Positions 3,143 through 35,622 of a stretch of 42,672 bases of DNA are shown here, one piece after another. Source of the DNA: Sedimentisphaerales bacterium (GTDB lineage Bacteria; Planctomycetota; Phycisphaerae; Sedimentisphaerales; Anaerobacaceae). The stretch lies in NCBI GenBank assembly GCA_016933985.1, contig JAFGTU010000432.1:1-42672 (forward strand), read 5' to 3'. Position 1 is the first letter of the stretch, and each line of letters begins with the position of its first letter. The notes under the pieces are model-generated. The model did no database searches. It was given only the letters and a program-made list of their open reading frames with translations, and had not been told where the DNA came from. Position numbers and translations under genes: made by a program.

Positions 3143-3188
3143 GCCCGTGGGATGGGTGTTGCTGCAAGAGGTATTCTATCGGCGGCTC

Positions 3189-6100
3189 TCAGTTCTGAAC
3201 CTGTGGAATGTTCACGACGACTCGGAAGCCCACGTCGCAGCCGGTATCGGTGTCTGCCTTGAGTCTGACAGATCTCATGCCTGGAGGGGCAAGACATGAG
3301 CCGCCATACAGGATATAGCTGGATCCATCTTTGCACCATTCCCACACGTTACCCTCAAGATCACATAGCCCGGATCCATTGGTGATAACAGGCTGTGGCC
3401 ACCACTGGTATCCGGTATCGGGCGCGATTTTCGAGGTGTCACGATCTTCAGCAACACCTAATGGTTCTCGATCATTAGTCGCCTTCTGCGGATCGTATGC
3501 TTCCATTGCCATCTTCCATGCACTTGACCTTAGGTGGGCCTTGCGTTGGTTTAGCCCTCTGCTATTGGCGAATTCGATAGCAGCCCGGAATTGGCCCGTC
3601 GTCGGCAAACTGGCTTTGAGACTATTTGCGTAGGCGAACGCTCCATAGTGGGTAACATAAGTCACGGGGTAATCGAATCTCTCTCTGGAGAGGACAAGTT
3701 GATCACTCTTGTAGAGACGTGGACACAGTCCCGGGATTTCAGAATACGGGTTAATAAGCATGATGGACTCCCTTCCATCAACATATCTGACCGAGTTATC
3801 AAGATCATCAAAGCGGATGTTACTCTTTATATCCGGCTGTTTCAGGAACATGTCGTATTGCTCATTTGTTGTCTCGTGAAGAGCCATATAGAAGGGCGGT
3901 ATTCGCTCAGCCGGATCGCTCGTGACATATATGAATATTGCACCAGGCTCGCCCGATCTCAATCTCGTGCCTCTTATGCTTGAATAGACGTATCTTGGCC
4001 ATGCGTTACCCTGGTTGTCCAATTCAAAGCGGTCCTTGAAAGCTCTATCATAGTCTCCATCGGTTCCGGTATCCCAATTCCATACTTTGTCCCAGCTATC
4101 GACAGCCGGAACGAGGGGCATGTAATACATAAATAGATTCGATCCGCTGAACTTCGCATCTTCACTGCGGAAAAGCAGGACATTTCCGTCTATTTCAAGG
4201 TGCGCGAAGCGGTCCGGCTTAATGTGACGCCTGATGGCGGAATAATGGTCACTGAGTTTCCTGAACAAGCCGGGGTACTTGCCGATATCATCATCGTTCT
4301 TCATGATAGCAGGCAGGGGCAGAATCTCGTTGTTGAGCGTTGCCTTAGTGACGCTGTAATCTTCAATAGCAGCCTTTAACGCACCCGGATTGCGTATCTT
4401 GCCCTGTACTTCCAGACGTTGTGTCTTAAGGATTACGTTTTCGATCTTCCTAAATTCATCTTCACATGCCTGCGTGTTGCGGGGATCGTTCGGTATCCAG
4501 CGATACCGTTCTGCAAGCCGGATCCAGCCATCGATATCATTTAGATCATCGGGATAGCCTGGGTCCTTAGCAAGCCCTGTCGTGTCATAGCGTCCCGGCC
4601 AGTTTGGATCTGCAATGAATTTTGAGAGCTTTCCAGCAATTAGGTTGAGATAATCCTTCTTAGCTTTGATTGCGCTCTCATCCATACTAAGCTCCGATAC
4701 ATAAGTCAGAGTCCTGTCATCCACTCCTATGTTCTTTGCCTTTATTTGCTCCTGATGTTTCTTGATGCTGATGAGAAGTGGATCTGGTTCAGGAGGAGAA
4801 ACCAGTCCGTCGTATTCGTCGCATGCCTGTTTGAAGCGTTTTTGTCGCAGATCGTCCTTTGGGAGATTATTGAAATCCGCGAATTTCTGTAGCCTAGTGC
4901 GGACATCGGCCTCTTTCACCACGGCGTCTTTGGGCCATTTTCCTGAGACGTTGGGATCTGCGATCCTTGCCCATGCTGCGAAAATAGCCTCCGGTTGTGA
5001 ATTGTCAGAGCCGGCAATCTTGACCAGTTCACTTGTGTTGAGTTCCTCGGCAATCTCGTTTAGCTTCTTCACTCTGTCGATGAGGGCCTTTACTTCAGGT
5101 TGACTGTTCGCATCAGACATGAATTCATTGAGCGTAGTGATGCCGTTTTCAAACACAGAACTAACGGAACGTCCCCCTCCCCCCCCCGGCTTGTCATCGA
5201 GAACGTAACAGGCATCAAACCATGTCTCGACATTATTGAAATCCTTCGCAACCTGAGATAACCCATTTGCCCATGTCCTGAACTTCTGTGTTTCGTCCCG
5301 GATTAGGGCGGTATTGGGATCGAAGTCTTCGAGGGCTTGAATTTGCCCGGCCAATTCGCTCTGATTCGGTTGTTTCTCAAGATCCAGTCCTGTTCTGCTC
5401 TTAATGATTTCCCGGAGCTTCCTGTCACGAGCCACAACGTACATGTCATTGAGCCCATAGCGCCGGACTTTCCCTGAGCCAATGTCTTGAATGTCTGAAG
5501 GAACAGCCTCATCCAACCTCATAAGATTACCACGAACGGTCTCAACCTCTTCTCTCCGCTTCTGGCTTTCTACGGTCGACGAGTCGGAGACCAATTTTGC
5601 CTGGGCTTGCCAACCACGGTACAAGAACCACGGTTTCTTGACCGAATTACTATCTGCCAAGATTTGCATATTCGGAAGATCGTTCCACCATTTCTGGTCC
5701 CCCATTCTCTTGCGGTACGTGGACTCGCAGGTTATCCAAACGGCTCTTGGCGAGTTGCTGTCCCCCGCAACTGCCTCCTGGCGGCTCGGTCCGTCCATTT
5801 TTTCAAGGAAGTAGCTGATATCATCCAGGTAGTCCTTCGAACCTGGTTGCAGTCCGTCCTTTGGTGTTAGCTTGCAGATGTTCTCTATAGCTAATAACAT
5901 GCGATTCATGTGACTATTTTCTATGCCGTTCGCATCCGCAGGAGGCGGGTTGATACTTTCGATCCAACTTTTCAAAGTGCCTGGAAGCTTGCGTAACCCA
6001 TATTTCCTCAACTCTGGGATTCGTTGGTCGCCAGTTTTCTTAAGGATTTGCCAGGGAGGACCATACCTATTGAAATCGTCGTCGCCAAGATACGCTCTGA

Positions 6101-7208
6101 AATTGCCGATCAACTCTTCCTTCAGTTTCTCTAGTTTGTCGGGATCACGTCCGTTCTTACTAAGGTGAGCGTTTGCATATTCTTTTGCTTTTTTCTGCTC
6201 GTCAGATGTCTTGCTCTCAGGGTCGCTGGCAAGGTTGTCAATATCTTCAACAAGAATCCAGCGACAGACTACAAGCTTGTCGTCGATGTAGGCAGGTAGT
6301 TGTGGCCGGTGTTTATAAAGGTAATTGATCCAACTCGTATTGCTTTCGATATTGATGTGAGGTTTAAGGTGAATGCTTATCAGGAGAATGCCTGCAATCG
6401 CTGTGGCACTCAATGCCCCCCCAATGACAAACCATTTTCGCCGAATGGGTGACCGTGCCAGGGGCTCCATTGCGGCCAATTCTTGGGCCAGTTGGGTGAG
6501 GTCTTTGCTGGTTCGCTGAAGTGCTGCGTCAATCAAGCGGCGGCACAGGTTCCTCCAGTCGTCCGCGCTCTTGCCGAGCGCTCGCCACTGTTCGGAGTCA
6601 GGGATTTGCCGATGGTCCAACATGGCCGATGAGCTGTGCGTTACGAGTTGGTAAATCAACTCGGCAACGTCACGCATGTCGGCCGCCCAGTGGACTTCGG
6701 GGTCGAGATGCCGGCGCGCAACTGGATCGCAAAGCACAACTTCGGCGTTCGGCAGGTCCAAATGCTGGGAGATCAAGATATTGCTGGGCTTGAGGTTGCC
6801 GTGGGGCCGGCCCAAAGCCTGTTTGAGTTCCAGCAGCCCGCACACCACTGACTTGACGATATTGTGAAGCGCTGCGGCACTTAGTCGCACATGCCCATCG
6901 ATAAGCTGCTGGGCCGAGCAGGCGTACTTGTCGGTTGCATAGTACGATCCCTCCGGTGCCGAGCCCTGGTCGTAAACCGGCGCCCAGTGCCCCGCCCCCG
7001 CTGCGGCGGCCTCTTGCTGGACTTTTGCGCTATCGAAAAACGCCTCGGCCTGATTCTTCGTTTCCTCACCCTCCCAAAATGAGGGCGGCCGAAAGACCTT
7101 AATCGCAAATTCTTTCCCCGGCTTGGCTGCTGACCGAGCGCTATAAACCGAATTCAGGCCTTTTTCGTGAAGCAAAACCTCGATGCTGTAGTGACCGAGA
7201 GTCGCCAT
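3189..7208 (-). CDS. Membrane-spanning Ser/Thr-kinase-like protein (degenerate catalytic motifs, probable pseudokinase) with a C-terminal FGE-sulfatase (SUMF1-like) domain
   Basis: aa 1-250 follow the Hanks kinase layout: EFAIKVF, HGNLKPSNILIS in place of HRDLKPxN, LCDPV in place of DFG, and DPE...DVAELIYQLVT. One TM helix is present (WFVIGGALSATAIAGILLISI, about nt 6366-6437). About 800 aa are unassigned. The last ~237 aa (nt 3192-3905) carry FGE-sulfatase signatures: PPFYMALHETTNEQY, YPVTYVTHYGAFAYANSL..LPTTGQF, GNVWEWCKD, YGGS and GFRVV. Confidence 0.8.
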   Translation of the reverse strand: MATLGHYSIEVLLHEKGLNSVYSARSAAKPGKEFAIKVFRPPSFWEGEETKNQAEAFFDSAKVQQEAAAAGAGHWAPVYDQGSAPEGSYYATDKYACSAQQLIDGHVRLSAAALHNIVKSVVCGLLELKQALGRPHGNLKPSNILISQHLDLPNAEVVLCDPVARRHLDPEVHWAADMRDVAELIYQLVTHSSSAMLDHRQIPDSEQWRALGKSADDWRNLCRRLIDAALQRTSKDLTQLAQELAAMEPLARSPIRRKWFVIGGALSATAIAGILLISIHLKPHINIESNTSWINYLYKHRPQLPAYIDDKLVVCRWILVEDIDNLASDPESKTSDEQKKAKEYANAHLSKNGRDPDKLEKLKEELIGNFRAYLGDDDFNRYGPPWQILKKTGDQRIPELRKYGLRKLPGTLKSWIESINPPPADANGIENSHMNRMLLAIENICKLTPKDGLQPGSKDYLDDISYFLEKMDGPSRQEAVAGDSNSPRAVWITCESTYRKRMGDQKWWNDLPNMQILADSNSVKKPWFLYRGWQAQAKLVSDSSTVESQKRREEVETVRGNLMRLDEAVPSDIQDIGSGKVRRYGLNDMYVVARDRKLREIIKSRTGLDLEKQPNQSELAGQIQALEDFDPNTALIRDETQKFRTWANGLSQVAKDFNNVETWFDACYVLDDKPGGGGGRSVSSVFENGITTLNEFMSDANSQPEVKALIDRVKKLNEIAEELNTSELVKIAGSDNSQPEAIFAAWARIADPNVSGKWPKDAVVKEADVRTRLQKFADFNNLPKDDLRQKRFKQACDEYDGLVSPPEPDPLLISIKKHQEQIKAKNIGVDDRTLTYVSELSMDESAIKAKKDYLNLIAGKLSKFIADPNWPGRYDTTGLAKDPGYPDDLNDIDGWIRLAERYRWIPNDPRNTQACEDEFRKIENVILKTQRLEVQGKIRNPGALKAAIEDYSVTKATLNNEILPLPAIMKNDDDIGKYPGLFRKLSDHYSAIRRHIKPDRFAHLEIDGNVLLFRSEDAKFSGSNLFMYYMPLVPAVDSWDKVWNWDTGTDGDYDRAFKDRFELDNQGNAWPRYVYSSIRGTRLRSGEPGAIFIYVTSDPAERIPPFYMALHETTNEQYDMFLKQPDIKSNIRFDDLDNSVRYVDGRESIMLINPYSEIPGLCPRLYKSDQLVLSRERFDYPVTYVTHYGAFAYANSLKASLPTTGQFRAAIEFANSRGLNQRKAHLRSSAWKMAMEAYDPQKATNDREPLGVAEDRDTSKIAPDTGYQWWPQPVITNGSGLCDLEGNVWEWCKDGSSYILYGGSCLAPPGMRSVRLKADTDTGCDVGFRVVVNIPQVQN

Positions 7209-7248
7209 CCGCCTCCTTCTATCGCCCGGCTTATCGGTAAGGTCCCAG

Positions 7249-7776
7249 TTAGTTGGAGCACTTGTCTCCGGCTACACTGATTTCCCCGCTGTCGATAGTG
7301 ATTTCAAGAGTGCACTTCTTCCAGCATTTCTTATAGTCCAACGACACTGGACGTGGGGTCGGATTGTTTGTGTCTTCATAGGGCAGGATCAGAACATATA
7401 AGTCGACAGCTCCCAGTTGCTTCCAAGTCTGCCATATAGAATCATCCTTCTCCACTGTGCGGAGCATGGTTCCTCCGTTGTCCATCTTGGCCGTTGAGAC
7501 ATTCGGATTGTCTCGGAATTCTATTATCTTCTGGTATCTACCCTGCTCGGCCGCGGTGCGTACGTCACTTATACTTTTCCAATAATCCCTCATCCTGACG
7601 GTGTCCCAACGCCACCTCGCCTTCTCTTCGGGATTAACGCCAACCAAATCCACGCGCAGGCGCCGGTTTTCATACCCAACGGCACGAACATCGATTCTGG
7701 GATCGCAGGTGCAACCCGCCGAGACAACTACTACGCCCAGCCACAACATTTGCCATTTTGACAACGGAATTCTCAT
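7249..7776 (-). CDS. Small lipoprotein (175 aa), a candidate TssJ-like or TagQ-like T6SS outer-membrane lipoprotein
   Basis: Start refined to ATG at 7776: AAGGAG at 7783-7788 lies 6 nt upstream, and the track start at 7809 has no SD. The signal peptide plus lipobox reads MRIPLSKWQMLWLGVVVVSAG|C. The mature part of ~150 aa looks mostly beta. It lies between the 661-aa gene and the kinase/FGE gene. Confidence 0.6.
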   Translation of the reverse strand: MRIPLSKWQMLWLGVVVVSAGCTCDPRIDVRAVGYENRRLRVDLVGVNPEEKARWRWDTVRMRDYWKSISDVRTAAEQGRYQKIIEFRDNPNVSTAKMDNGGTMLRTVEKDDSIWQTWKQLGAVDLYVLILPYEDTNNPTPRPVSLDYKKCWKKCTLEITIDSGEISVAGDKCSN

Positions 7777-7821: not shown

Positions 7822-9807
7822 TTACTGATCCGTATATCTTTCTAAGTACTTACGAATAACACCTGCAATCTCCCAACTGGCTCGCCAATCGGGGACAATT
7901 AGAGTGCGTGTCTTTATCATAAGGTTTTCCAGTTCGGCACTCGTCTGGTCAAATACCTTATGAAGCCCACCTTGTGGAGCATCTCCATACTCCTTACACA
8001 CGCTATCAGGGCCTGCTCCTGGGAACATACGCACTATAATAGCCAACGCCGACCACCACAGCTTGAGGGGGAAGAGGCCCAGGGCCTCGTCTGGTGTAAT
8101 CTTATCAAACAACAACTGCTGTGGCCCCAGCGGAGCTATCCAGCGGTTGTCGGCTTGGAAGGTTTCTTCCACACGCACACTAAGTCTCTTTGATTCCTCG
8201 TGGGTGGATGCCAAATGGCGAGCCAAACTCAAAACCGCGTCCAGCGCTAGAGGCAGTGTTGTTGAATTGTTGACTAATATGATTCTTGTCGCCAGAACGC
8301 CCAAGGCGTACAGATCGCACGGACTACTCAACAGCGGAATTACTTCAAAGGGAGTCTCGTGCATCGGTATGCCTTCGGTTCTTTTGAGATTTGCCAGATC
8401 GCTGCCGCTTATCTTGTGGGGCACTGTCCTAAAACGCCATTCCCCCGGCGCCATCGCTGAGTCCTTCTCAAGATGGGCATACAGATTGACGGTTCCGGAA
8501 CCGTGGTTGAGTCGCAGCCAGAGAAGGTCATGGTAGAAGAACTCAATTCGCTCCTGGGTGGACAGCGTGCCGTCAACTGTCGTGATTTCATCGGTAGTGG
8601 TCGAGATTTGCCGGATGCGAACTGAGACACGCCCTTTGGCGGGTAGTGACACATTCATCGGGCGATATACTGACGCCTCGCCCGCCGAAGCCGACAAATA
8701 GTATCTGACTCCGGTATTTTCAGCAATCAACGTTATTGTATCACCCGGTTCACAAAGCTCCGCCTTCGCCGTCCACAGATATGGCAAACCTCGGCCAGGT
8801 TGGCCAAGCCTGACCTGGAAACTGGTGTCGCTAATGTTCAAGAGCGGTTTTTGAAGTTCTGATACCAACAGCCTGACCGAGGCTATAATGTCTGCTAACA
8901 ACCGAAGCTTAAGATAGAAGGTCTCCAGCAGACGACCGCTCTTGCCCTGGGATTCGAGGAAAAGCCGACCATCGTCAACCAGCACTGTCTGATCACTCTT
9001 GAGCGAGTCTATCTGTTTTCCGAGGTTAAGCTCCGATTTTCCGTGTTTGAGCCCTCCCCAGGGGACTCCGCTGATAATATCGACGAAGGATTCGAGGCTG
9101 GTCGGAAGGTGCTTCCTCGCCATAACAAAGCCCGCACCCTCATTAAACAGGATGATGGAGTCGGTGTTGTTGCATACTTGAGCCAGCGAGCTTGTACACT
9201 CGTTTTCCGGCGCGCCTTTCGTAACCGGTACAAACAATGAATCGGCCCCGATAGTAGAGATATAAAGATAGCGGTGGAGTGAGCTGGTGTAGGCAGGAAG
9301 CCCTTTTTGCCTAAGCAAGCCATCGTCAGTGCACAATGTTAATGGTGACTTGGAGTTCTTCTCGATCGGATGAACAGGAGAAAGCGAAGAAAGATCAAGA
9401 AATGTGGGCAGAGGATGTTTGGACTCCCAGCCCGTCCTGACTATTTGATCGGCACCAAGTGCCAGAAAGCCTCGACATTGTTGAATCCATCGATAGTCCA
9501 AGATGCTGTTTGAGAGTGATTGTCGATACGCGGCAGGGCTGTTCGAAAGGCCTTCGTTATTCTGGACCCAAAGCTCGATCCATTCGTGGACCTGGCCGGA
9601 GACATCGAGCACGCACCCCAAATACACCTTCGTGTCGATCCTGTCGCGAAGCAAAACGAGGTGGCCGCCAACCGGATCCGCTTCCCGCCTGGCCAATATG
9701 CAGATCCTCAGCGATGCCCTTGCTTGGTCCGCGCTGATAGGGACGGCCACGTAACCCTGGGGTAAAGTTGCAGAAGCATTCTTGGTTTCAGAAGGAGTCA
9801 CTGACAA
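7822..9807 (-). CDS. Hypothetical 661-aa protein with a degenerate protein-kinase-like C-terminal half
   Basis: Long uninterrupted ORF co-oriented with the T6SS arm. aa ~296-335 (LLADIIASVRLLVSELQKPLLNISDTSFQV) resemble kinase helix E plus catalytic loop without the HRD Asp. aa ~497-515 (CDLYALGVLATRIILVNN) resemble subdomain IX (D-x-[WY]-[AS]-[LF]-G-[VI]). The only start codons near the 5' end are TTG (9807) or GTG (9801), without a clear SD, so the start is uncertain. Confidence 0.55.
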   Translation of the reverse strand: MSVTPSETKNASATLPQGYVAVPISADQARASLRICILARREADPVGGHLVLLRDRIDTKVYLGCVLDVSGQVHEWIELWVQNNEGLSNSPAAYRQSLSNSILDYRWIQQCRGFLALGADQIVRTGWESKHPLPTFLDLSSLSPVHPIEKNSKSPLTLCTDDGLLRQKGLPAYTSSLHRYLYISTIGADSLFVPVTKGAPENECTSSLAQVCNNTDSIILFNEGAGFVMARKHLPTSLESFVDIISGVPWGGLKHGKSELNLGKQIDSLKSDQTVLVDDGRLFLESQGKSGRLLETFYLKLRLLADIIASVRLLVSELQKPLLNISDTSFQVRLGQPGRGLPYLWTAKAELCEPGDTITLIAENTGVRYYLSASAGEASVYRPMNVSLPAKGRVSVRIRQISTTTDEITTVDGTLSTQERIEFFYHDLLWLRLNHGSGTVNLYAHLEKDSAMAPGEWRFRTVPHKISGSDLANLKRTEGIPMHETPFEVIPLLSSPCDLYALGVLATRIILVNNSTTLPLALDAVLSLARHLASTHEESKRLSVRVEETFQADNRWIAPLGPQQLLFDKITPDEALGLFPLKLWWSALAIIVRMFPGAGPDSVCKEYGDAPQGGLHKVFDQTSAELENLMIKTRTLIVPDWRASWEIAGVIRKYLERYTDQ

Positions 9808-10076
9808 CTCAACTTAAAAATAACCAGCCAATTCCAATATCCCTTGCTTAACACCTGACCTGTCCACTCAACAATGAACAGTATTCAAAGGCATGCGAGT
9901 AGGTATTATTGCTGATTAGCTTCTCGGTGTCAAGTCAAATATCCGGCATCATCGAATTGAATTGGCGAAGCAGCCCCTTATGGCCACAATTGGCCGGATA
10001 AGAACAAGAAAGATCCTCTCCGTGCGTGCTCGGCAGCCTCGCCCGGCCGCTCCTCAGCTTCCACTTTCAGCCGGCC

Positions 10077-10367
10077 TTATCCTCCAATGAGGACGGTGGG
10101 GCAGCATGGGGGTCCGACTGCCGTCGTTACAGGCACCCCTGTAGCCGGGTTAGCGCCAGTCACTTGACTGGTCAGTCGCGTGGCAGGCCGACCGCCGATC
10201 AGGACGGTCATACTGCCCAAGGTTACGGCCCCCACGCAGACACCGCCCGAGACCAGATCCCCAACCACCGACGCCGGCATATTACCGACCAAAACGGTAG
10301 GAACGCCAGGCCCTGTAATAGGGTCGCCAGTAACCGTCATATCGCCAACACGTGCCGCAGGAAGCAT
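10077..10367 (-). CDS. PAAR-domain spike-tip protein (96 aa, minimal PAAR)
   Basis: There are three PAAR-type motifs: MLPAARVGDM, GNMPASVVGD and GGRPATRLTS. The protein is Gly/Val/Thr-rich and has the typical size. GGAG lies 8 nt upstream of the ATG. Confidence 0.9.
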   Translation of the reverse strand: MLPAARVGDMTVTGDPITGPGVPTVLVGNMPASVVGDLVSGGVCVGAVTLGSMTVLIGGRPATRLTSQVTGANPATGVPVTTAVGPPCCPTVLIGG

Positions 10368-14762: not shown

Positions 14763-15452
14763 CTATTTGTCATGAACTTCCTTGAGTTTGTCAGCGGTGG
14801 CCTGGTCCAGTTTCCCGGTAACTTTTAGTTTGTTTTGACTCTGGAATTCCTGAAGGGCCAAACTGGTTTTGGGATTCATTTTTCCGTCCGCCTTTCCTGC
14901 GTCATATCCCATATTGTTCAAACGCTGCTGAGCCCCGCTGACTTCGTCCACCGGATCCAGGTATCTGAATTTCAAAATGTGTTCGGTTTTTTCCTCACCT
15001 TCCCCTACCGTTAGTTTACCCTGTTGGGCGTCAGGAGGCACTTCCTGCTCTAATTTCCCTTTCCCATCGGTCTTGCCCTTAAAGGTCTCCCCCTCGATTT
15101 CAAGCATATAAGGCTGATTGGCCCGCGGCTCGCCCTCTTTGCGCAGAGTAATTTTTACCTTTGAAGGCACTCCCTTCCGCTTAAAACGGTGCTTCTTTTC
15201 GGTAGCGCCGGGAACATCCTTTTCTTCTTTCTCACGGATAAAAACCTTATCACCCGGCAGCAGGACATTGGGATTCTTGCGTTCTCTTTTGAGCTCGGCA
15301 TTCTTCGGATCGTTCCAGACGGTTTCCCAGAACAAACCGTGTTCATAAGCGAGACTCTCTATGCAATCGCCCTGCTTGACTGTATAACCTTCTTTTCCCG
15401 CAGGACCTTTACCAATCGTTTGTGATGTTTCTTCTTTATTTACGCGATCCAT
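14763..15452 (-). CDS. LysM plus PG_binding_1 peptidoglycan-binding protein (229 aa), no signal peptide
   Basis: LysM domain: YTVKQGDCIESLAYEHGLFWETVWNDPKNAELKRERKNPNVLLPGDKVFI. C-terminal PG_binding_1-like repeat: VSGAQQRLNNMGYDAGKADGKMNPKTSLALQEFQSQNKLKVTGKLDQATADKL. Start refined to ATG 15452 (GGGAG lies 8 nt upstream), which overlaps the vgrG stop as TAATG. The track start at 15467 is a TTG. Confidence 0.85.
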   Translation of the reverse strand: MDRVNKEETSQTIGKGPAGKEGYTVKQGDCIESLAYEHGLFWETVWNDPKNAELKRERKNPNVLLPGDKVFIREKEEKDVPGATEKKHRFKRKGVPSKVKITLRKEGEPRANQPYMLEIEGETFKGKTDGKGKLEQEVPPDAQQGKLTVGEGEEKTEHILKFRYLDPVDEVSGAQQRLNNMGYDAGKADGKMNPKTSLALQEFQSQNKLKVTGKLDQATADKLKEVHDK

Positions 15453-17788
15453 TATCCCTTCTCCCAAGCTTCCTTATCTAGTTCCGGGAAACAGATTTTA
15501 CAGGTGCCCGGTTCGATACCGTCGAGGCGGGCAAACCCCTTTTCGTCCAGCGTGCCGTCGGCGACGCTCTTGTCGGGTAAGGTTATTTTATACCTTTCGC
15601 CCGGAATGGGTTTGTCTTTTTCATCCACTAATTCTATTTCAATCCAACTGGTTTTTTTCTTTTTCTCTTCTTCAGTCTCCGGCGGCTTGTAGGGTATGAC
15701 CGGCACCGAACCGTACTTGCCGGACTGGGTTTGAATTTGTTGGGCTTTGATTTCGGCTACCTCGCCCGGATCGGCATCGTCGGCGTCCTCGGCCTTGACC
15801 GGCACAACCGGCGCGACGACGCTTCCGGCCCGGCCGGGCGTAGGAGGTGAGCCGGGCCCGGAATTGATCCTCGTCATCCCGCCGTCAATGGTAACCATGG
15901 CTCCTTTTACCGTAACGCCGGCCGGATCGAGCACCACACTGCTGCCGCCGCATTTGAGCGTAATGCCCTTCATCGCCTCGATGACAATACCCATCGCCTT
16001 GAGGTAGTAGTTCTGTGTTGTCTGCTCGGAATGGTTCTTCTTGAAGACCTCAATAACATCCCCCTTGACCGTCAGCGACAGGCTCTTGGCAACCTCCTTG
16101 GCCTCCTTGCCCTTGACCTTCAGGTGCCGGTCCTTGCCGATCTCTTCCTTGTGGTCGGCATCGACCTTTTCGCTGCGATTGTTGTCCACGTGCTCGAACT
16201 TGTCCTTCTCGACGTGCAGGTGCCGGTTATTCTTGATCGTCTCGAATCGGTCGTTCTTGACGCGGATATCCAGATTCTTCTCGGCGTGGATGAAGATTTG
16301 TTCATCGCCCTTTTTGTCCTCGTATCGGATTTCGTTGAATCCCTGGCCGCCCTTGCTGGAGTTGGATTTGAGTGTCGATTTCGTTTTCTCAGAGGGCAGT
16401 TCATACGGGGGCATTGCTTGGCCGTTATAGACCCGGCCGGTTATGATAGGCCGGTCCGGGTCGCCTTCGATAAACTCAATGATGACTTCCTGGCCAATGC
16501 GCGGAATATACATCGCCCCCCAATTCTTTCCGGCCCAGACCTGAGCGACCCTGATCCAGCACGAGCTGTTCTCATCGGCCTTGCCGTAGCGGTCCCAGTG
16601 AAAGAGGACCTTCACGCGGCCGTACTCGTCGGTGTGAATCTCTTCTCCGGAAGGCCCAACCACAATTGCCGTCTGAGGACCTGGAATCGACGGTTTGGGA
16701 GTTATGCGGCCGGCACGAAACGGCTCGGTGGCGTCGATGGCCGCGAAACTGCATGAATAGACACTTTCGCTGGCGTTGCTGCCCTCCGATTCGAATTCTG
16801 CCAAGGCGATATTATAATGTGCCGAGGTGATCAAGTATTTGATGTTCTGGTCGTCGCGAGGATACTCGCTGAGAGTGAAGGTGCAGCCGGCGCAAATGCC
16901 TCTGGCGTCGGAATCAGCCTCAGCCACCATATATTGGGACTGCAACTCTTCTATACGCGTTCTGGCATAGTTCTCACCGTCGGCATATTCCGCATATTCG
17001 CCGGGGTAGTCATACATCTCGTGGTCGGCGCCGGCATGATCGCGAGTAACCTTGGCTCTTGTTTGAAGGTCTTTCTTCGTGTTCTTGAAGTCAAAGTCTT
17101 TCAGTGAATACATACCGGGCAGGACTTTTTTTGAAACCCTCCAAGTCAGAATGACCTCATCGTCGCTAACAGCCGAATCCGGAGGCCTGTACTGCACTTC
17201 TTCATACTCTTCAAAGGGTTGATGCGCAGATGCAGAATCAGCCAGCACGAGCGTATGTTTGCCGTCTTCGTGCTTGAAAAAGTAGTAAATCCCCTCCTGT
17301 TCCATAAGCCTGCTGACAAAATTGAAGTCGGTCTCGCGGTATTGAACACAATACTCCCATTCGCGGTAGTTGCCGCTCAAGGAGTCCTCAAAGTCGCTAA
17401 ACCCGTGGTCACGAAATACCTGCTTGATGATATTGGGAACGGTCATTTTCTGAAAGATTCGGCAATCCGAGGTCCGGGTCAGAAACCATAACCAGGGTAC
17501 GATAGTCGCTTTGTACTCTGCGTACCGGCCCCGGCCTGGCGTCTGCGTGAAATTACTTACATACCCGTTGAAATAGCGTGTCTTGTTCTTGCTCAGTTCG
17601 AGTCGGATACTAACATTCTGGCCTATGATGTCCTCGAATCGTATCTGGTGGTCTTCGCTGACCAATTCCAATCGAAAATCAAACGGCCGGCCGAGTTGCT
17701 CGGTCCCCGACATGGCAACCAGCAAAAGCACATCTTCGCCCAAAGGGGTTCCAATCGCCAACTCTCTGTGTTTCTGTGTTATTGCCAT
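15452..17788 (-). CDS. vgrG: VgrG (TssI) spike protein with a 138-aa C-terminal extension
   Basis: gp27-like N-terminus: MAITQKHRELAIGTPLGEDVLLLVAMSGTEQLGRPFDFRLELVSED. gp5 OB-fold: GRVKVLFHWDR...WIRVAQVWAGKNWG. Beta-helix repeats: KNDRFETIKNNRHLHVEKDKFEHVDNNRSEKVDADHKEEIGKDRHLKV. These are followed by an acidic/Pro linker and a ~66-aa beta-rich terminal domain. Confidence 0.95.
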   Translation of the reverse strand: MAITQKHRELAIGTPLGEDVLLLVAMSGTEQLGRPFDFRLELVSEDHQIRFEDIIGQNVSIRLELSKNKTRYFNGYVSNFTQTPGRGRYAEYKATIVPWLWFLTRTSDCRIFQKMTVPNIIKQVFRDHGFSDFEDSLSGNYREWEYCVQYRETDFNFVSRLMEQEGIYYFFKHEDGKHTLVLADSASAHQPFEEYEEVQYRPPDSAVSDDEVILTWRVSKKVLPGMYSLKDFDFKNTKKDLQTRAKVTRDHAGADHEMYDYPGEYAEYADGENYARTRIEELQSQYMVAEADSDARGICAGCTFTLSEYPRDDQNIKYLITSAHYNIALAEFESEGSNASESVYSCSFAAIDATEPFRAGRITPKPSIPGPQTAIVVGPSGEEIHTDEYGRVKVLFHWDRYGKADENSSCWIRVAQVWAGKNWGAMYIPRIGQEVIIEFIEGDPDRPIITGRVYNGQAMPPYELPSEKTKSTLKSNSSKGGQGFNEIRYEDKKGDEQIFIHAEKNLDIRVKNDRFETIKNNRHLHVEKDKFEHVDNNRSEKVDADHKEEIGKDRHLKVKGKEAKEVAKSLSLTVKGDVIEVFKKNHSEQTTQNYYLKAMGIVIEAMKGITLKCGGSSVVLDPAGVTVKGAMVTIDGGMTRINSGPGSPPTPGRAGSVVAPVVPVKAEDADDADPGEVAEIKAQQIQTQSGKYGSVPVIPYKPPETEEEKKKKTSWIEIELVDEKDKPIPGERYKITLPDKSVADGTLDEKGFARLDGIEPGTCKICFPELDKEAWEKG

Positions 17789-17854
17789 TATCGACTACCT
17801 CAAGTCACCACAACTTTTCATTACACCATGTTCCACCTGTCAATTCCAGGAATT

Positions 17855-20641
17855 TTAGTTGAACGAATATGTAAATTCGCTATCCTCAACTCCTATATGG
17901 ACGCGTTTTGCGGTTTTGCCTTCCATCAGGCGCGTCAAGAGTTCCTCGCTGATTCTCGGGAGCAGCGTGTGCGTCAGGATGGCGTCAACCATTCGAGCCC
18001 CGCTTTCAACCTCCGTGCACCGGCCGACGACAAGGGCCACAACGTCATTGTCATAGCTGAACGGTATCCGGTGATTCTGTTGTGTACGGCGTCCAATACG
18101 GTCTAACTGCAGGCGAGTAATAAGTTCCAGCGTTTCGTCGTTCATTGGATAGTAGGGCACGACTACAAGGCGCCCAAGAAGAGCCGCAGGAAAGACCTTA
18201 AGCAATGGGCCGCGAAGGGCTTTGCCTATTGCTTCGGGTTCGGGCATCAGCTTCGGGTCCTTGCACATCTGCATTATCATGTCGGTGCCGACATTGCTTG
18301 TTAGCAGAATGATAGTATTCTTGAAATCGATTAGACGACCTTCGGCATCTTCCATCTGACCTTTGTCGAACACCTGAAAGAATATCTCATGCACGTCATG
18401 GTGCGCTTTTTCGACTTCATCGAGCAGGACAATACTGTACGGTCGGCGTCGCACTGCCTCTGTGAGCACCCCGCCCTCACCATATCCGACGTACCCGGGC
18501 GGTGAACCTTTGAGCGTGGAAACCGTGTGGGCTTCCTGGAACTCGCTCATATTGATGGTGATTAAGTTATTCTCACCTCCATACAGGGCTTCAGCCAAAG
18601 CAAGTGCCGTTTCAGTCTTGCCCACGCCGCTGGGCCCAACCAATAGCATAACACCGATAGGCTTATTCGGATTCTCTATGCCGGCTCGCGATGTCCTGAT
18701 TCGTTTTGCGACTGCTTCCAGCGCGTGATCTTGACCTATAACGCGACCCCGAAGCGTATCCGACAATTTCAGCACTGCTTCGATCTCATCCTTCACCATC
18801 CCCCCCACAGGAACACCCGTCCAGTCGGCGACTACTGAACCGACAGCTCGCGCGTCAACGCACGGAAGAATAAGGGGCGTTTCTCCCTGCAGCTCATAGA
18901 GCTTCTTCTGCAGCGATTTGAGTTCTCTTAGCAATTTGTCCCTATCCTTGGCTTCTGATTTAGCCGATTTATCGGGCTTAGCCTTAGCATGCACGTCGGC
19001 ATCTACTGTCCGCGGGTCGTCAACCTTTTTGGCCTTCGTCTTTGCAGTTCCTTCTTCCGCCGTCTCTGCTTGTTCAATCGTACACTCTCCGGATTTGCGC
19101 AGCTTGGCTCGTATGTCTAAAATGGTATCGACCAAGGTCTTTTCTTCCGCCCAGCGTTGCTCCAGCTTACCCAATTTCACACGTTCCGCCTCAAGCTTCT
19201 CCTTAGTCTCGGATTCGCGTTTCTTGTGATCAACGCCCATTGAGCGTTCTCTGGCGATGATTTCCAGCTCTGTCTCCAACGCTTGAATTCGTCGCCGGCA
19301 GTCTTCCAATTCCGGCGGCACCGCATGTTGGCTTATGGCCACTCGTGCGCTCGCCGTATCGGTCAAACTGACCGCTTTGTCGGGGAGCTGACGTTCGGGA
19401 ATGTAACGGTGTGAGAGACGAACCGCGGCATCCAGGGCCTCGTCCAAAATCTGCACACGATGGTGTTGTTCAAGATTACTGGCCAATGCCCGCATCATTG
19501 TCAACGCCTTGTCTTCTTCAGGCTCATCGACCTTGATAACCTGGAATCTGCGGGTAAGGGCAGGGTCTTTTTCGATATACTTCTTGTACTCGCTCCACGT
19601 TGTCGCTGCGATGGTCCGCAACGTGCCGCGAGCAAGCGCCGGCTTGAGCAAGTTTGCCGCGTCGCCCGTTCCGGCTGCCCCCCCGGCGCCAATGAGCGTG
19701 TGGGCCTCATCGATGAAAAGGATGATGGGCTTTGGCGAACCCTGAACCTCTTCAATGACCTGTCGCAAACGGTTCTCAAACTCGCCCTTTACACTGGCGC
19801 CGGCCTGCAGCAAACCGACATCCAGCACGCGCAGTGTCACGTCCTTGAGCGATGGCGGCACGTCACCTTCGGCAATACGCTGGGCGAAACCTTCGACAAC
19901 CGCCGTCTTACCGACGCCCGCCTCGCCTGTCAGAATCGGGTTGTTCTGGCGGCGACGCATTAAAATATCGACGATCTGCCGGATTTCTTCGTCCCGCCCG
20001 ACAATCGGATCCATTTCACCGCTACGAGCCCTTTCTGTCAGATCCACTGAAAATCTCGCCAGGGCCTCCTGCTTTCCCATTGCAGCCGGCGCCATATCGC
20101 GGGCGCCCCGGCTGGATTCGCCCTCGGCCCGCATTGAACTGCCGTCAGTCGCCGAGAGGGACTCCTCAGCCGAGCCCCCGACGATTTTTGCAAAGTCATC
20201 CGTCAACTGCTCCAACTTGATCTTGCCGAATTCGCCCGAGGTTCCCAGCAGAACATTCTTGAGACCGCTGGTCTTGAGAATCCCCACTATCAAGTGGCCC
20301 GTGCGAATACACGATTCACCGAATAAAAGAGTCCCATATACCCATGCACGCTCCACGGACTCTTCAAGATGAGGTGAGAGATCCGAAATCGACGTAGATC
20401 CCCGCGGCAACCGGTCAAGTTCCTCAGTCATGTCTTTGGCGAGCCTGGAAGGGTCTATCTCAAAGTGGCGCACGATCCGGTGGATGTCTGAGTCCTGCAA
20501 TTGCAGAATCTGGTGAAGCCAGTGTACCATCTCGACATACGGATTGCCTCGCAGTTTGCAGAAGACTGTTGCGCTTTCAATAGATTTGTAGCCAAGACTG
20601 TTCAGCTTGCCAAACAAAGACGCCCGATTGATTTCAGCCAT
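17855..20641 (-). CDS. clpV: ClpV (TssH) AAA+ sheath-recycling ATPase
   Basis: ClpV-type N-domain: INRASLFGKLNSLGYKSIESATVFCKLRGNPYVEMVHWLHQIL. Walker A1 GEAGVGKT and Walker B1 ILFIDEAH. Walker A2 GPSGVGKT and Walker B2 VLLDEVEKAH. Start refined to ATG 20641 (GAGGG lies 7 nt upstream); the track start at 20647 is a TTG. Confidence 0.95.
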   Translation of the reverse strand: MAEINRASLFGKLNSLGYKSIESATVFCKLRGNPYVEMVHWLHQILQLQDSDIHRIVRHFEIDPSRLAKDMTEELDRLPRGSTSISDLSPHLEESVERAWVYGTLLFGESCIRTGHLIVGILKTSGLKNVLLGTSGEFGKIKLEQLTDDFAKIVGGSAEESLSATDGSSMRAEGESSRGARDMAPAAMGKQEALARFSVDLTERARSGEMDPIVGRDEEIRQIVDILMRRRQNNPILTGEAGVGKTAVVEGFAQRIAEGDVPPSLKDVTLRVLDVGLLQAGASVKGEFENRLRQVIEEVQGSPKPIILFIDEAHTLIGAGGAAGTGDAANLLKPALARGTLRTIAATTWSEYKKYIEKDPALTRRFQVIKVDEPEEDKALTMMRALASNLEQHHRVQILDEALDAAVRLSHRYIPERQLPDKAVSLTDTASARVAISQHAVPPELEDCRRRIQALETELEIIARERSMGVDHKKRESETKEKLEAERVKLGKLEQRWAEEKTLVDTILDIRAKLRKSGECTIEQAETAEEGTAKTKAKKVDDPRTVDADVHAKAKPDKSAKSEAKDRDKLLRELKSLQKKLYELQGETPLILPCVDARAVGSVVADWTGVPVGGMVKDEIEAVLKLSDTLRGRVIGQDHALEAVAKRIRTSRAGIENPNKPIGVMLLVGPSGVGKTETALALAEALYGGENNLITINMSEFQEAHTVSTLKGSPPGYVGYGEGGVLTEAVRRRPYSIVLLDEVEKAHHDVHEIFFQVFDKGQMEDAEGRLIDFKNTIILLTSNVGTDMIMQMCKDPKLMPEPEAIGKALRGPLLKVFPAALLGRLVVVPYYPMNDETLELITRLQLDRIGRRTQQNHRIPFSYDNDVVALVVGRCTEVESGARMVDAILTHTLLPRISEELLTRLMEGKTAKRVHIGVEDSEFTYSFN

Positions 20642-21048
20642 TGCCAAGCCCTCTCATTCTATTGTTGTGCCTTGAGTAGGTAGATGCTTCAAATCAGTGA
20701 TCCTCTTGAGAAAGGCATCTTTCGCTGGGTCGAAGCCTCTAAACCGGCCCTATGATAAGTACCGTCCGTTGAATTTACACAAATAACTCCTGATTAGCGG
20801 ATAGGCCTTCGTTGCCGCGGCCAGATGCCTGCTTATATCAAATTGCACGATTGTGTCAACTCCTCTTTTCCCTACCTTCCTCTGGAATAACGAGGGTAAT
20901 GGCGCGCTGCAAACAGGACTGCACGGCCAAAAAACCAAATTCTCCAGGGCCAAGCCAAGTTCTCCACCTTGCGCGCAGAATATAAACGGCCAGAAAAAAA
21001 GAAACCCAAATCGCAACCGAATCCGTGATGACACGCATTCTTACTGAA

Positions 21049-35601: not shown

Positions 35602-35622
35602 CCCTCGGAGGGTTTGCAAGCT

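What the first reader, a model, noticed from the sequence alone, without database searches (positions are those of the whole stretch)
3189..7208. PpkA-like and TagR-like functions fused in one polypeptide, with a kinase core that looks catalytically dead
Seen: the N-terminal 250 aa follow the Hanks kinase layout and keep the AIK lysine (EFAIKVF). The Gly-rich loop has a single Gly (LHEKGLNSVYS). The catalytic loop reads HGNLKPSN instead of HRDLKPxN, with Asn codon AAC (plus-strand gtt at 6795-6797) where the catalytic Asp belongs. DFG reads DPV, and only ~5 residues separate it from a DPE (APE-like) motif, so there is essentially no activation loop. After one TM helix and ~800 unassigned extracytoplasmic residues, the protein ends in a full FGE-sulfatase domain (nt 3192-3905). 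Established: in the H1-T6SS threonine-phosphorylation pathway, the periplasmic FGE-sulfatase-domain protein TagR, held by the lipoprotein TagQ, activates the kinase PpkA. PpkA phosphorylates Fha1 and PppA reverses this. Inference: sensor (TagR-like) and transducer (PpkA-like) are fused here. Together with the absence of Fha and PppA, this suggests signalling by scaffolding or conformational change rather than phosphotransfer. Caveat: kinase-FGE fusions are common in some phyla, so the T6SS link rests on operon context only.
Basis: partly seen in the sequence, partly recalled or inferred. Interest (0 to 1): 0.7.

Follow-up and report, generated by a model that had tools for sequence, protein, structure and literature searches.

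The report
Membrane pseudokinase in Planctomycetota T6SS
This gene encodes a membrane protein with a catalytically disabled kinase-like domain inside the cell and a non-enzymatic FGE-type domain outside, and it belongs to a large, undescribed family that sits in type VI secretion gene clusters of Planctomycetota, probably controlling or supporting assembly of that weapon without phosphorylation.

Summary
ORF 3189-7208(-) encodes 1339 aa made of four parts: a Hanks-kinase fold (aa 1-250), one TM helix (259-281), about 720 aa of all-helical periplasmic region with no fold match, and a full FGE-sulfatase fold that lacks FGE's catalytic cysteines.

The Asn at the HRD-Asp position is not a sequencing error. 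Among 168 motif-independent family representatives it is N in 87%, D in 3.6%, and otherwise A/E/S/R/K/M. The Gly-loop and the aC-Glu are lost, and the activation segment is about 33 aa shorter than in a real kinase. In contrast, the VAIK-Lys, the catalytic-loop Asn and the DFG-Asp are each ≥96% conserved. This points to a pseudokinase that probably still binds nucleotide.

The T6SS link is strong. The module u661 -> lipoprotein -> this gene recurs in 58/80 genome loci and in 55/59 partner-seeded metagenome loci. It usually lies next to VgrG/ClpV or directly upstream of an FHA-less Fha homologue followed by TssK-TssL-TssM.

An Fha C-terminal-domain homologue without the FHA domain is present at 32536-33474.

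Homology to PpkA and TagR holds only at superfamily level, and the mechanism is inferred. I rate this a new variant of a known kind, of moderately high interest.

The parts
3189..7208 (-). Whole ORF, 1339 aa: pseudokinase, then a TM helix, then a helical periplasmic region, then an FGE-like domain ('PK_FGE')
6459..7208 (-). Cytoplasmic Hanks-kinase-fold pseudokinase domain (aa 1-250). Key codons: K37 at 7098-7100, HGN at 6795-6803 (N138 at 6795-6797), N143 at 6780-6782, D161-P162 at 6723-6728, aF D177 at 6678-6680.
   Evidence: Profile against PDB kinases, E=4.5e-9. AF2 model with pLDDT 89. Foldseek returns only kinases, E about 1e-10. Residue conservation.
6366..6434 (-). Single transmembrane helix (aa 259-281). 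RRK lies on the N-terminal side, which predicts an N-in/C-out topology.
   Evidence: Kyte-Doolittle scan; this is the only segment scoring above 1.5. A TM helix sits at the same offset in about all homologues.
4209..6359 (-). Predicted periplasmic all-alpha region (aa ~284-1000, about 35 helices) with no known fold match. It contains the family motif AAWxRLG..P.WP (aa 744).
   Evidence: AF2 model with pLDDT 75. Foldseek against PDB gives no hit better than E=0.5 for this part.
3192..4202 (-). C-terminal beta-rich segment plus the FGE-sulfatase-fold domain (core aa ~1100-1335; signature motifs GNVWEW 1286, GGS 1302, DVGFR 1325). FGE's catalytic Cys pair is absent.
   Evidence: Pfam E=6e-14. Foldseek hits FGE/pFGE/EgtB over ~300 columns. 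Family profile against human FGE, E=5.6e-14, with no counterpart of Cys336/Cys341.
7249..7776 (-). Conserved ~175-aa lipoprotein immediately upstream (signal peptide plus lipobox VSAGC). Candidate periplasmic/outer-membrane partner of the FGE-like domain.
   Evidence: Present directly upstream in 61/80 genome loci. Lost together with PK_FGE in L140 and L142/L143.
7822..9807 (-). Conserved 661-aa protein of unknown fold ('u661'), first gene of the three-gene module. It has no TM helix or signal peptide.
   Evidence: No Pfam or PDB sequence hit. Present upstream in 58/80 loci. When used as the seed, 55/59 loci carry PK_FGE downstream.
10077..10367 (-). PAAR spike-tip protein gene upstream of the module
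   Evidence: Sequence MLPAARVGD.... A PAAR gene occupies the same position in homologous loci.
32536..33474 (+). FHA-less homologue of the Fha/TagH C-terminal domain (probable start M at 32560). In many relatives this gene lies directly between PK_FGE and TssK.
   Evidence: Pfam T6SS_FHA_C E=7.8e-4, below the cutoff. 7/12 family members hit it and 0/12 hit FHA. Synteny.
33496..39828 (+). TssK, TssL and TssM (baseplate and membrane-complex genes). In layout B of related loci these follow PK_FGE directly.
39849..40865 (+). Weak TagF-like protein (motif AAFGKHPGW) located after TssM
   Evidence: Pfam TagF_N E=0.045. 4/6 relatives give weak hits between 0.02 and 0.14. Low confidence.
15452..20647 (-). 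VgrG and ClpV, at the head of the minus-strand gene array that ends with PK_FGE
   Evidence: The same order, ClpV-VgrG-...-u661-lipo-PK_FGE, recurs in many loci.

Best explanation
The gene encodes a bitopic inner-membrane pseudokinase that is an accessory component of a Planctomycetota-type T6SS.

Shown:
- It has a cytoplasmic Hanks-kinase fold that lacks the catalytic base, the Gly-rich loop, the aC Glu and the activation/P+1 segment.
- It retains the ATP/Mg-binding Lys, Asn and Asp.
- It has one TM helix, a ~720-aa helical periplasmic region, and a non-catalytic FGE-sulfatase-fold domain.
- It is almost always co-encoded with a small lipoprotein and a 661-aa cytoplasmic protein, inside or next to T6SS baseplate and membrane-complex genes. 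These include an Fha homologue that has lost its phosphothreonine-binding FHA domain.

Inferred:
- The periplasmic FGE-like tip, together with the lipoprotein, senses or contacts the envelope, much as TagQ-TagR feed PpkA.
- The resulting change in conformation or oligomeric state of the nucleotide-bound pseudokinase domain recruits or positions cytoplasmic T6SS parts (u661, FHA-less Fha, TssK/TssL).
- No phosphotransfer takes place.

In effect this would be a threonine-phosphorylation-pathway layout that has lost the phosphate: the kinase base, the FHA domain and PppA are all missing together.
For: Kinase fold: family profile against PDB gives StkP E=4.5e-9 and 299 kinases, with HGN aligned on HRD. 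The AF2 model has pLDDT 89.2 and pTM 0.87. All top Foldseek hits are kinases, including the MviN/Rv3910 pseudokinase.

Pseudokinase status comes from motif-independent samples. All 37 word-seeded homologues carry HGN. In 168 representatives from an exhaustive profile search, the HRD-Asp position is N 87%, D 3.6%, and otherwise A/E/S/R/K/M. The aC-Glu position is never E, there is one Gly in the G-loop, and the DFG-Asp to aF-Asp spacing is 16 against 49 residues. K37 is 97% conserved, N143 97% and D161 96%.

The FGE fold lacks the Cys pair.

Synteny: 5/5 look-ups of homologues show [~650 aa]-[~175 aa]-[PK_FGE] beside T6SS genes. In genome loci, 58/80 have u661-lipo-PK_FGE and 43/80 have a T6SS core gene within 10 kb. 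Of u661-seeded metagenome loci with room downstream, 55/59 have PK_FGE there.

No Pkinase, PP2C or FHA Pfam domain occurs in the window's 25 ORFs. The Fha homologue lacks FHA in 12/12 members. The lipoprotein and PK_FGE are lost together in L140 and L142/143 while TssK-L-M stay. This fits an accessory sensor pair rather than an indispensable core part.
Against: There is no biochemical or genetic evidence.
- The high conservation of K37, N143 and D161 would also fit residual or atypical catalysis.
- One orthologue (P0035/L087) carries a real kinase domain fused in front of the pseudokinase, so phosphorylation may still play a role in some lineages, and a trans-acting kinase elsewhere in the genome cannot be excluded from a 42.7-kb window.
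- The T6SS_FHA_C and TagF_N assignments are below Pfam cutoffs.
- Homology of the FGE-like domain to TagR specifically, and of the kinase domain to PpkA specifically, was not tested.
- The partners (u661, lipoprotein) have no recognisable fold, so the proposed contacts are guesses.
Confidence: 0.6

Rival explanations
1. It is a structural subunit of a non-canonical T6SS membrane complex, rather than a sensor. The pseudokinase would be a cytoplasmic docking platform, as EssB/YukC is in T7SSb. The helical region plus FGE-like domain would form part of the periplasmic or outer-membrane assembly, as the FGE-fold lipoprotein PorK does in the T9SS ring. It would replace or supplement a missing TssJ.
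For: The gene sits inside the membrane-complex operon in layout B, in the order u661-lipo-PK_FGE-Fha_C-TssK-TssL-TssM. No Pfam TssJ is found in the window. TssM shows only the IcmF-related_N domain, and its periplasmic IcmF-related and IcmF_C domains are undetectable. The C-terminal profile also hits PorK/GldK at E about 1e-4. EssB/YukC is a documented membrane pseudokinase subunit of a secretion system (PMC12599244). Presence next to u661 is near-obligate at 93%.
Against: A lineage (L140, L142/L143) keeps u661-Fha_C-TssK-TssL-TssM but lacks both the lipoprotein and PK_FGE at this place. Its TssM is equally divergent. The pair therefore looks dispensable for the core machine, unless it is encoded elsewhere. 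The strong conservation of ATP/Mg ligands is not needed for a purely structural role. This rival is not mutually exclusive with the best explanation.
Confidence: 0.25
2. The domain still takes part in phospho-signalling. It could be a very weak or atypical enzyme (JAK2 JH2, which from memory also has HGN and DPG, retains low activity). Alternatively it could be a phospho-acceptor or allosteric partner of a real Hanks kinase encoded elsewhere. A precedent is the MviN pseudokinase, which is phosphorylated by PknB.
For: K37, K140, N143 and D161 are 89-97% conserved. About 4% of family members have Asp at the base position. P0035 has a bona fide kinase (HRDIKPGN, DFG, Pfam PF00069) fused in front of the pseudokinase, in the same synteny. 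The MviN/Rv3910 kinase-homology domain is among the structural matches.
Against: The base position tolerates A, S, R, K, M and E. Even the HGD members keep the degenerate G-loop, lack the aC Glu and have the truncated activation segment. No FHA reader domain or PP2C eraser is in the cluster. The kinase-fused form is 1 of 177 sampled proteins.
Confidence: 0.12
3. It is a general envelope sensor of the common kinase-FGE architecture that only happens to neighbour T6SS genes in this contig. A variant of this rival is that the Asn is a sequencing or assembly artefact in an otherwise active kinase.
For: Active kinase-FGE-sulfatase fusions are a known architecture (the Proteo1 family in the bacterial STK atlas). 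A distant subfamily of about 13 of the 80 genome loci shows no T6SS gene within 10 kb.
Against: Synteny with T6SS genes is conserved across Pirellulales, Phycisphaerae, Sedimentisphaerales, Planctomycetaceae, Brocadiaceae and Tepidisphaerales MAGs, and it also holds from the partner's side. Asn at this position occurs in 87-91% of independently sampled relatives that share ≤50% identity.
Confidence: 0.03

Closest known systems
PpkA (TagE), the membrane Hanks-type Ser/Thr kinase of the T6SS threonine-phosphorylation pathway (P. aeruginosa H1, Serratia, Agrobacterium)
   Same: - Encoded in a T6SS cluster near fha, tssK, tssL, tssM and tagF.
- Bitopic layout: an N-terminal cytoplasmic Hanks-fold domain, one TM helix and a periplasmic sensor region.
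- PpkA is activated by dimerisation driven from the periplasm (PMC10482370). That step needs no catalysis and could be retained here.
   Different: - The catalytic Asp is replaced (HGN).
- The G-loop, the aC Glu and the activation segment are missing.
- There is no FHA-domain substrate and no PppA.
- The periplasmic part is a helical region plus an FGE fold, not PpkA's periplasmic domain.
- Pfam Pkinase does not even detect the domain.
- Specific phylogenetic affinity to PpkA was not tested.
TagR (COG1262/FGE-sulfatase-domain periplasmic activator of PpkA), acting with the outer-membrane lipoprotein TagQ and TagS/TagT
   Same: - A predicted periplasmic FGE-sulfatase-fold domain in a T6SS accessory protein.
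- An adjacent small lipoprotein gene that is co-lost with it, which is reminiscent of the TagQ-TagR pairing.
   Different: - The domain is covalently fused to the transducer rather than free-standing.
- No TagS/TagT ABC-type genes are in the window.
- The lipoprotein shows no detectable similarity to anything.
- Direct similarity to TagR was not measured.
EssB/YukC, the membrane pseudokinase subunit of the T7SSb secretion system
   Same: - A bitopic membrane protein with a cytoplasmic degenerate kinase domain (degraded motifs, attenuated activation loop).
- It serves a secretion machine non-catalytically (PMC12599244).
   Different: - It belongs to a different secretion system and phylum.
- EssB has lost all three catalytic motifs, whereas this family keeps the VAIK-Lys and the DFG-Asp.
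- EssB has no FGE domain.
- No sequence relationship was tested.
MviN (Rv3910) kinase-homology domain / ActPs3 family, and the seven bacterial pseudokinase families of the bSTK atlas
   Same: - A bacterial Hanks-fold pseudokinase on a membrane protein with a large deletion of the activation loop.
- It appears among the Foldseek matches.
   Different: - All seven atlas families show substitution of the VAIK-Lys, whereas here the Lys is 97% conserved.
- The taxonomic range (Planctomycetota) and the T6SS context are not described there.
- That atlas was built from Pfam-Pkinase-detectable sequences, a set that this family escapes.
Non-catalytic FGE-fold proteins (pFGE/SUMF2; PorK/GldK of the T9SS)
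   Same: - The full FGE-sulfatase fold is present without the catalytic cysteine pair.
- PorK shows that this fold can be a structural periplasmic element of a secretion system.
   Different: - Sequence similarity is only at the family-signature level (GNVWEW, GGS, D.GFR).
- The domain architecture is different.

Membership tests
Hanks-type (eukaryotic-like) protein kinase superfamily (fold) | Bilobal kinase fold with recognisable subdomains | tested here: met
   The profile hits 299 PDB kinases, best E=4.5e-9. The AF2 model has pLDDT 89. All top Foldseek hits are kinases, with TM 0.55-0.68. Pfam Pkinase itself gives no hit.
Catalytically competent Hanks Ser/Thr kinase | Catalytic-base Asp in the HRD motif | tested here: not met
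   HGN, with N138 encoded by AAC at 6795-6797. In the family this position is N 87%, D 3.6%, and otherwise A/E/S/R/K/M.
Catalytically competent Hanks Ser/Thr kinase | Gly-rich loop GxGxxG | tested here: not met
   EKGLNS has a single Gly, which is 70% conserved.
Catalytically competent Hanks Ser/Thr kinase | Salt bridge between the beta3 Lys (VAIK) and the aC Glu | tested here: not met
   The Lys is present (K37, 97%), but the aC-Glu position is S/A/R/G and never E. A Gln four residues later is 94% conserved.
Catalytically competent Hanks Ser/Thr kinase | Metal-binding DFG Asp and catalytic-loop Asn | tested here: met
   D161 is 96% conserved (as DP, with the Pro at 100%) and N143 is 97% conserved.
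Catalytically competent Hanks Ser/Thr kinase | Activation segment with a P+1 loop and an APE motif | tested here: not met
   The DFG-Asp to aF-Asp distance is 16 residues, against 49 in the genuine kinase domain of P0035.
PpkA / TagE (T6SS threonine-phosphorylation-pathway kinase) | Encoded within a T6SS cluster, with conserved linkage | tested here: met
PpkA / TagE | Bitopic topology: cytoplasmic kinase domain, one TM helix, periplasmic domain | tested here: met
   A single hydrophobic helix at aa 259-281 with RRK on the N-side. This is a prediction only.
PpkA / TagE | Autophosphorylates and phosphorylates Fha or TssL | not testable with these tools
   The sequence prerequisites are missing (rows above). 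A biochemical assay is needed.
PpkA / TagE | An FHA-domain partner (Fha/TagH) and the PP2C phosphatase PppA in the cluster | tested here: not met
   No FHA or PP2C Pfam hit in the 25 ORFs. The Fha homologue has only the C-terminal domain.
TagR | Periplasmic FGE-sulfatase (COG1262) domain | tested here: met
   Pfam E=6e-14. Foldseek hits FGE. Profile against human FGE, E=5.6e-14. The periplasmic location is inferred from the topology.
TagR | Free-standing secreted protein working with TagQ (lipoprotein) and the TagS/TagT ABC-type complex | tested here: not met
   The domain is fused to the TM pseudokinase. No ABC-type genes are in the window. An adjacent lipoprotein exists, but it has no detectable homology to anything. 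Similarity to TagQ itself was not tested.
Formylglycine-generating enzyme (catalytic FGE) | Catalytic or Cu-binding cysteine pair between the GGS and GFR motifs (Cys336/Cys341, human numbering) | tested here: not met
   The alignment of six family members and the profile-to-FGE alignment show no conserved Cys pair there.
Described bacterial Ser/Thr pseudokinase families (CP1, DYD, ActPs1-3, DLHK, GLW) | [quoted passage not shown] | tested here: not met
   The Lys is 97% conserved here; the family descriptions come. Direct sequence comparison with those families was not done.
EssB/YukC-type secretion-system pseudokinase | Homology to the EssB cytoplasmic domain and membership of a T7SSb | not tested
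   This is an analogy only.

The most novel reading that the evidence does not exclude
A whole clade of PVC-superphylum T6SSs uses a phosphate-free descendant of the threonine-phosphorylation pathway. In this reading a lipoprotein-coupled, FGE-fold periplasmic sensor is fused to an ATP-binding pseudokinase switch. Together with the unknown 661-aa protein and an FHA-less Fha, the switch decides where and when the T6SS assembles. This would make it the first pseudokinase-based trans-envelope regulator, or core accessory, of a T6SS. It would also be an eighth, Lys-retaining bacterial pseudokinase family, with at least 740 clusters at 50% identity.
Probability: 0.35. Interest if true: 0.75.

Novelty: new variant of a known kind. 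Interest (0 to 1): 0.62.

Why it matters
- **Annotation gap.** About 740 sequence clusters (50% identity) are currently annotated only as 'SUMF1/EgtB/PvdO family nonheme iron enzyme', 'sulfatase modifying factor' or 'hypothetical'. They are in fact membrane pseudokinases tied to T6SS, and both Pfam and the recent bacterial kinome atlas miss the kinase-like domain.
- **A natural experiment on the TPP pathway.** The kinase base, the FHA reader and the PppA eraser have disappeared together, while the receptor architecture, the Fha C-domain and a TagF-like protein remain. This makes it testable which parts of PpkA-type signalling (dimerisation, scaffolding) work without phosphate.
- **An unrecognised T6SS gene set.** The data point to a Planctomycetota/PVC-specific accessory set (u661, lipoprotein, PK_FGE, and a TssM with a divergent periplasmic part) in a phylum whose T6SS biology is essentially unstudied.

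Tried and rejected
1. Pfam and NCBIfam on the full protein find no kinase family, even at E<=10. Single-sequence phmmer against PDB was only marginal (E=0.036). A family profile and a structure model were needed.
2. I suspected that u661 (motifs PLLNISPESFQV and CDLYSLGVL) might be a second degenerate kinase. hhalign against the pseudokinase profile gives probability 0.3%, and Pfam and PDB profile searches give nothing. Rejected.
3. I tested whether the 175-aa lipoprotein is TssJ. There is no Pfam T6SS-SciN hit and no PDB hit at E<=10, and it is co-lost with PK_FGE while TssK-L-M remain. This is unresolved and leans against TssJ.
4. The 80 genome loci were retrieved with a pattern that requires R[PSG]HGNLK. 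I therefore did not use them as evidence for Asn conservation. I used instead.
5. The helical periplasmic region has no structural match in PDB.
6. The original TagR paper (PMC3402362) is not held. TPP background was taken from PMC10482370 and PMC13584744.
7. Literature searches for a T6SS pseudokinase, or for Planctomycetota T6SS accessory genes, found nothing relevant.
8. The sequencing-error explanation for AAC is rejected.

Full report
**Observation.** The ORF is real: 3189..7208 on the minus strand, 1339 aa, with an ATG start. Homologues begin with the same M-A-x-F-G-x-Y, so the start is correct. All quoted motifs are present:
- LHEKGLNSVYS (one Gly)
- EFAIKVF (K37)
- HGNLKPSN (aa 136-143)
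- DPV-ARRHL-DPE (aa 161-171)

The Asn138 codon is AAC at 6797-6795 on the minus strand. A single hydrophobic helix (aa 259-281) follows an RRK cluster. Pfam places FGE-sulfatase at aa 1102-1294 with E=6e-14.

**Is the N-terminus a kinase?** Pfam and NCBIfam do not see one, even at E<=10. The single sequence reaches only E=0.036 against StkP. The relationship is nevertheless secure:
- A 24-member family alignment (A1) hits 299 PDB kinases. The best is StkP at E=4.5e-9, with HGNLKpsN aligned on HRDLKPQN.
- The AF2 model of aa 1-265 has pLDDT 89.2 and pTM 0.87.
- Foldseek returns only protein kinases at E of about 1e-10 to 1e-8. These include bacterial PknI, S. aureus PknB/Stk1, Xanthomonas PknS, and the MviN/Rv3910 kinase-homology (pseudokinase) domain.

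**Is it a pseudokinase, or is the Asn an error?** All 37 word-seeded homologues (27-60% identity) have HGN. An exhaustive profile search of 1.84 billion representatives found 742 proteins at E<=1e-30, 1032 at E<=1e-10 and 13,535 at E<=1e-3, the last group being ordinary kinases. So this is a large, well-separated family.

Conservation in 168 aligned representatives:

| Position | Residues observed |
|---|---|
| HRD-Asp position | N 87%, D 3.6%, otherwise A, E, S, R, K, M |
| aC-Glu position | S/A/R/G, never E |
| G-loop | one Gly, 70% conserved |
| VAIK-Lys | 97% |
| HG of the catalytic loop | 98% |
| Catalytic-loop Lys | 89% |
| Catalytic-loop Asn | 97% |
| DFG-Asp | 96% (followed by an invariant Pro) |
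| aF Asp | 99% |

The DFG-Asp to aF-Asp distance is 16 residues, against 49 in a real kinase. The activation loop, the P+1 loop and the APE motif are therefore gone. Members with HGD keep all the other defects. An independent, partner-seeded sample gives N in 50 of 55.

I did not use the loci for this point, because the search pattern itself demanded HGN.

Conclusion: the catalytic-base position is free to vary while the nucleotide and metal ligands are under strong constraint. This is the signature of a nucleotide-binding pseudokinase. From memory, JAK2 JH2 shares HGN and DPG; that parallel is a lead, not a test.

**The rest of the protein.** An AF2 model of aa 284-1339 (pLDDT 75, pTM 0.45) shows about 35 helices up to roughly aa 1000, followed by an alpha/beta domain. 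Foldseek matches only FGE, pFGE, CalU17 and EgtB, over about 300 columns (E from 4e-5). Nothing matches the helical part. A six-member C-terminal profile hits human FGE at E=5.6e-14 in two stretches covering most of the enzyme. More weakly, it hits the T9SS ring lipoprotein PorK/GldK. The Cys336/Cys341 pair of FGE has no counterpart. The domain is therefore a non-catalytic FGE/C-type-lectin-like module, predicted to be periplasmic.

**Context in the window.** The window is a complete T6SS-i cluster:
- Plus strand, 24.4-40.9 kb: TssA, TssB, TssC, Hcp, TagJ/ImpE, TssE, TssF, TssG, a ~300-aa protein with a sub-threshold T6SS_FHA_C hit, TssK, TssL, TssM, and a weak TagF-like protein.
- Minus strand: ClpV, VgrG, a PG_binding_1 protein, a 988-aa Metallophos protein, a pentapeptide protein, PAAR (10077-10367), a 661-aa unknown ('u661'), a lipoprotein of about 175 aa (lipobox VSAGC), and then the gene in question.

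No Pkinase, PP2C or FHA Pfam domain occurs in any of the 25 large ORFs. The Fha-like family hits T6SS_FHA_C in 7 of 12 members and FHA in none.

**Is the T6SS link more than this one operon?** Yes.
- Five of five homologue look-ups show [~650 aa]-[~175 aa]-[PK_FGE] next to PAAR, TssB/C, VgrG or TssK-L-M.
- A scan of 185,579 species-representative genomes found 128 loci, almost all Planctomycetota MAGs (Pirellulales, Phycisphaerae, Sedimentisphaerales, Planctomycetaceae, Brocadiaceae, Tepidisphaerales) plus a few Verrucomicrobiota-labelled MAGs.
- Of the 80 loci kept, 58 have u661-lipoprotein-PK_FGE in the same order and 43 have a T6SS core gene within 10 kb.

Two layouts recur:
- Layout A: ClpV-VgrG-...-u661-lipo-PK_FGE with a convergent ~1000-aa gene, as in this window.
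- Layout B: u661-lipo-PK_FGE-Fha_C-TssK-TssL-TssM-TagF-like.

About 13 more distant members have no detected T6SS neighbour. A few lie after TssM/TagF-like as a second paralogue.

Seeding instead with u661 in metagenomes, 55 of 59 loci with room carry the pseudokinase immediately downstream. The exceptions L140 and L142/L143 go straight from u661 to Fha_C-TssK-TssL-TssM and lack both the lipoprotein and PK_FGE. This suggests the two form a functional pair that is accessory rather than indispensable.

**Mechanism (inferred).** The layout mirrors the TagQ/TagR to PpkA to Fha pathway described for P. aeruginosa (PMC10482370; PMC13584744). The differences are that the FGE-fold sensor is fused to the transducer, and the three phosphate-dependent elements (kinase base, FHA domain, PppA) are all missing. 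My proposed sequence of events is:
1. The lipoprotein and the FGE-like tip report an envelope state.
2. This changes the oligomeric or conformational state of the ATP-bound pseudokinase.
3. The pseudokinase then recruits or positions u661, Fha_C and TssK/L.

A structural role in a non-canonical membrane complex is the main rival, and the two readings are not exclusive. In its favour: no TssJ is detectable; TssM's periplasmic domains are undetectable by Pfam; and there are precedents in EssB/YukC and PorK.

Residual phospho-signalling cannot be excluded. One orthologue (P0035/L087) has a genuine kinase domain fused in front of the pseudokinase, in the same synteny. A trans-acting kinase could also lie outside the window.

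**Comparison and novelty.**
- It works like a PpkA-TagR fusion, but it fails the membership tests for an active Hanks kinase, for PpkA, for free-standing TagR and for catalytic FGE.
- It is not one of the seven bacterial pseudokinase families of the recent atlas. All of those show substitution of the VAIK-Lys, and the atlas was drawn from Pfam-detectable sequences.
- Reviews of T6SS accessory factors and literature searches revealed no description of a T6SS pseudokinase or of this Planctomycetota module.
- Public annotations call these proteins SUMF1/EgtB/PvdO-family enzymes or hypothetical proteins.

I classify it as a new variant of a known kind (the T6SS post-translational receptor-kinase pathway) with moderately high interest. 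The identity and the T6SS association are well supported. The mechanism is an inference that needs biochemistry, complex prediction and genetics.

Noticed in passing
window 7822-9807 (-) and 7249-7776 (-): Two conserved genes of unknown fold always precede the pseudokinase: a 661-aa cytoplasmic protein (38-54% identity among relatives, many invariant Trp/Cys/Pro) and a ~175-aa lipoprotein. Neither has any Pfam or PDB sequence match. They look like unrecognised T6SS accessory genes of Planctomycetota.
   Followed up: partly
window 35614-39828 (+); also L142:13526-17650 and L004:17201-20752: TssM in this clade matches only Pfam IcmF-related_N. The periplasmic IcmF-related and IcmF_C domains that normally bind TssJ are not detected, and no TssJ (T6SS-SciN) is found in the window. 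This suggests a non-canonical periplasmic or outer-membrane part of the membrane complex.
   Followed up: partly
L087 (contig of P0035) 2046-7328: One orthologue has a genuine Hanks kinase domain (HRDIKPGN, DFG; Pfam Pkinase) fused N-terminal to the HGN pseudokinase. It sits in the same u661 -> PK -> Fha_C synteny but has no lipoprotein gene between. This is a JAK-like tandem of kinase and pseudokinase, and it is a single contig.
   Followed up: partly
L140 and L142/L143 (u661 at ~8001-10016, Fha_C at 10398-11390 in L142): One lineage has u661 directly followed by Fha_C-TssK-TssL-TssM, with the lipoprotein and the pseudokinase-FGE gene both missing. This is co-loss of the pair.
   Followed up: yes
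L003 18237-20609 (runs off the locus; 1522-aa product): Downstream of TssM, a TagF-like N-terminus (VFLAAFGKHPGW) is fused to a second very large FGE-sulfatase-domain protein. Loci L060, L076, L079 and L080 also carry a paralogous HGN-pseudokinase protein next to TssM/TagF-like. Some clusters therefore have two such proteins.
   Followed up: no
window 10077-10367 (-): An unlisted small ORF encodes a PAAR-type spike tip protein (MLPAARVGD...GGRPATR...). It lies upstream of u661, as in related loci.
   Followed up: partly
window 17-3142 (+): A 1041-aa ORF convergent with the pseudokinase gene has Gly/Thr-rich beta-helix-like repeats (GGSVRTTGTQTYDDDVTLG, three or more copies) and no Pfam hit. 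A homologue occupies the same convergent position in 29/80 loci. In L005 the slot holds a TPS/ShlB two-partner secretion pair.
   Followed up: no
window 14763-15467 (-) and 11720-14686 (-): A PG_binding_1 protein directly after VgrG is conserved in 16 related loci and may be a peptidoglycan-anchoring accessory. It is followed by a 988-aa calcineurin-like phosphoesterase and a pentapeptide-repeat protein, which are probably effector or immunity cargo. The phosphoesterase is not a PP2C/PppA.
   Followed up: no
window 21152-22666 (-) and 22864-23592 (-): A 504-aa class-I methyltransferase (MTS/DUF7059/DUF7782) and a 242-aa unknown protein lie between the two divergent T6SS operons. A relation to the T6SS is unknown.
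   Followed up: no
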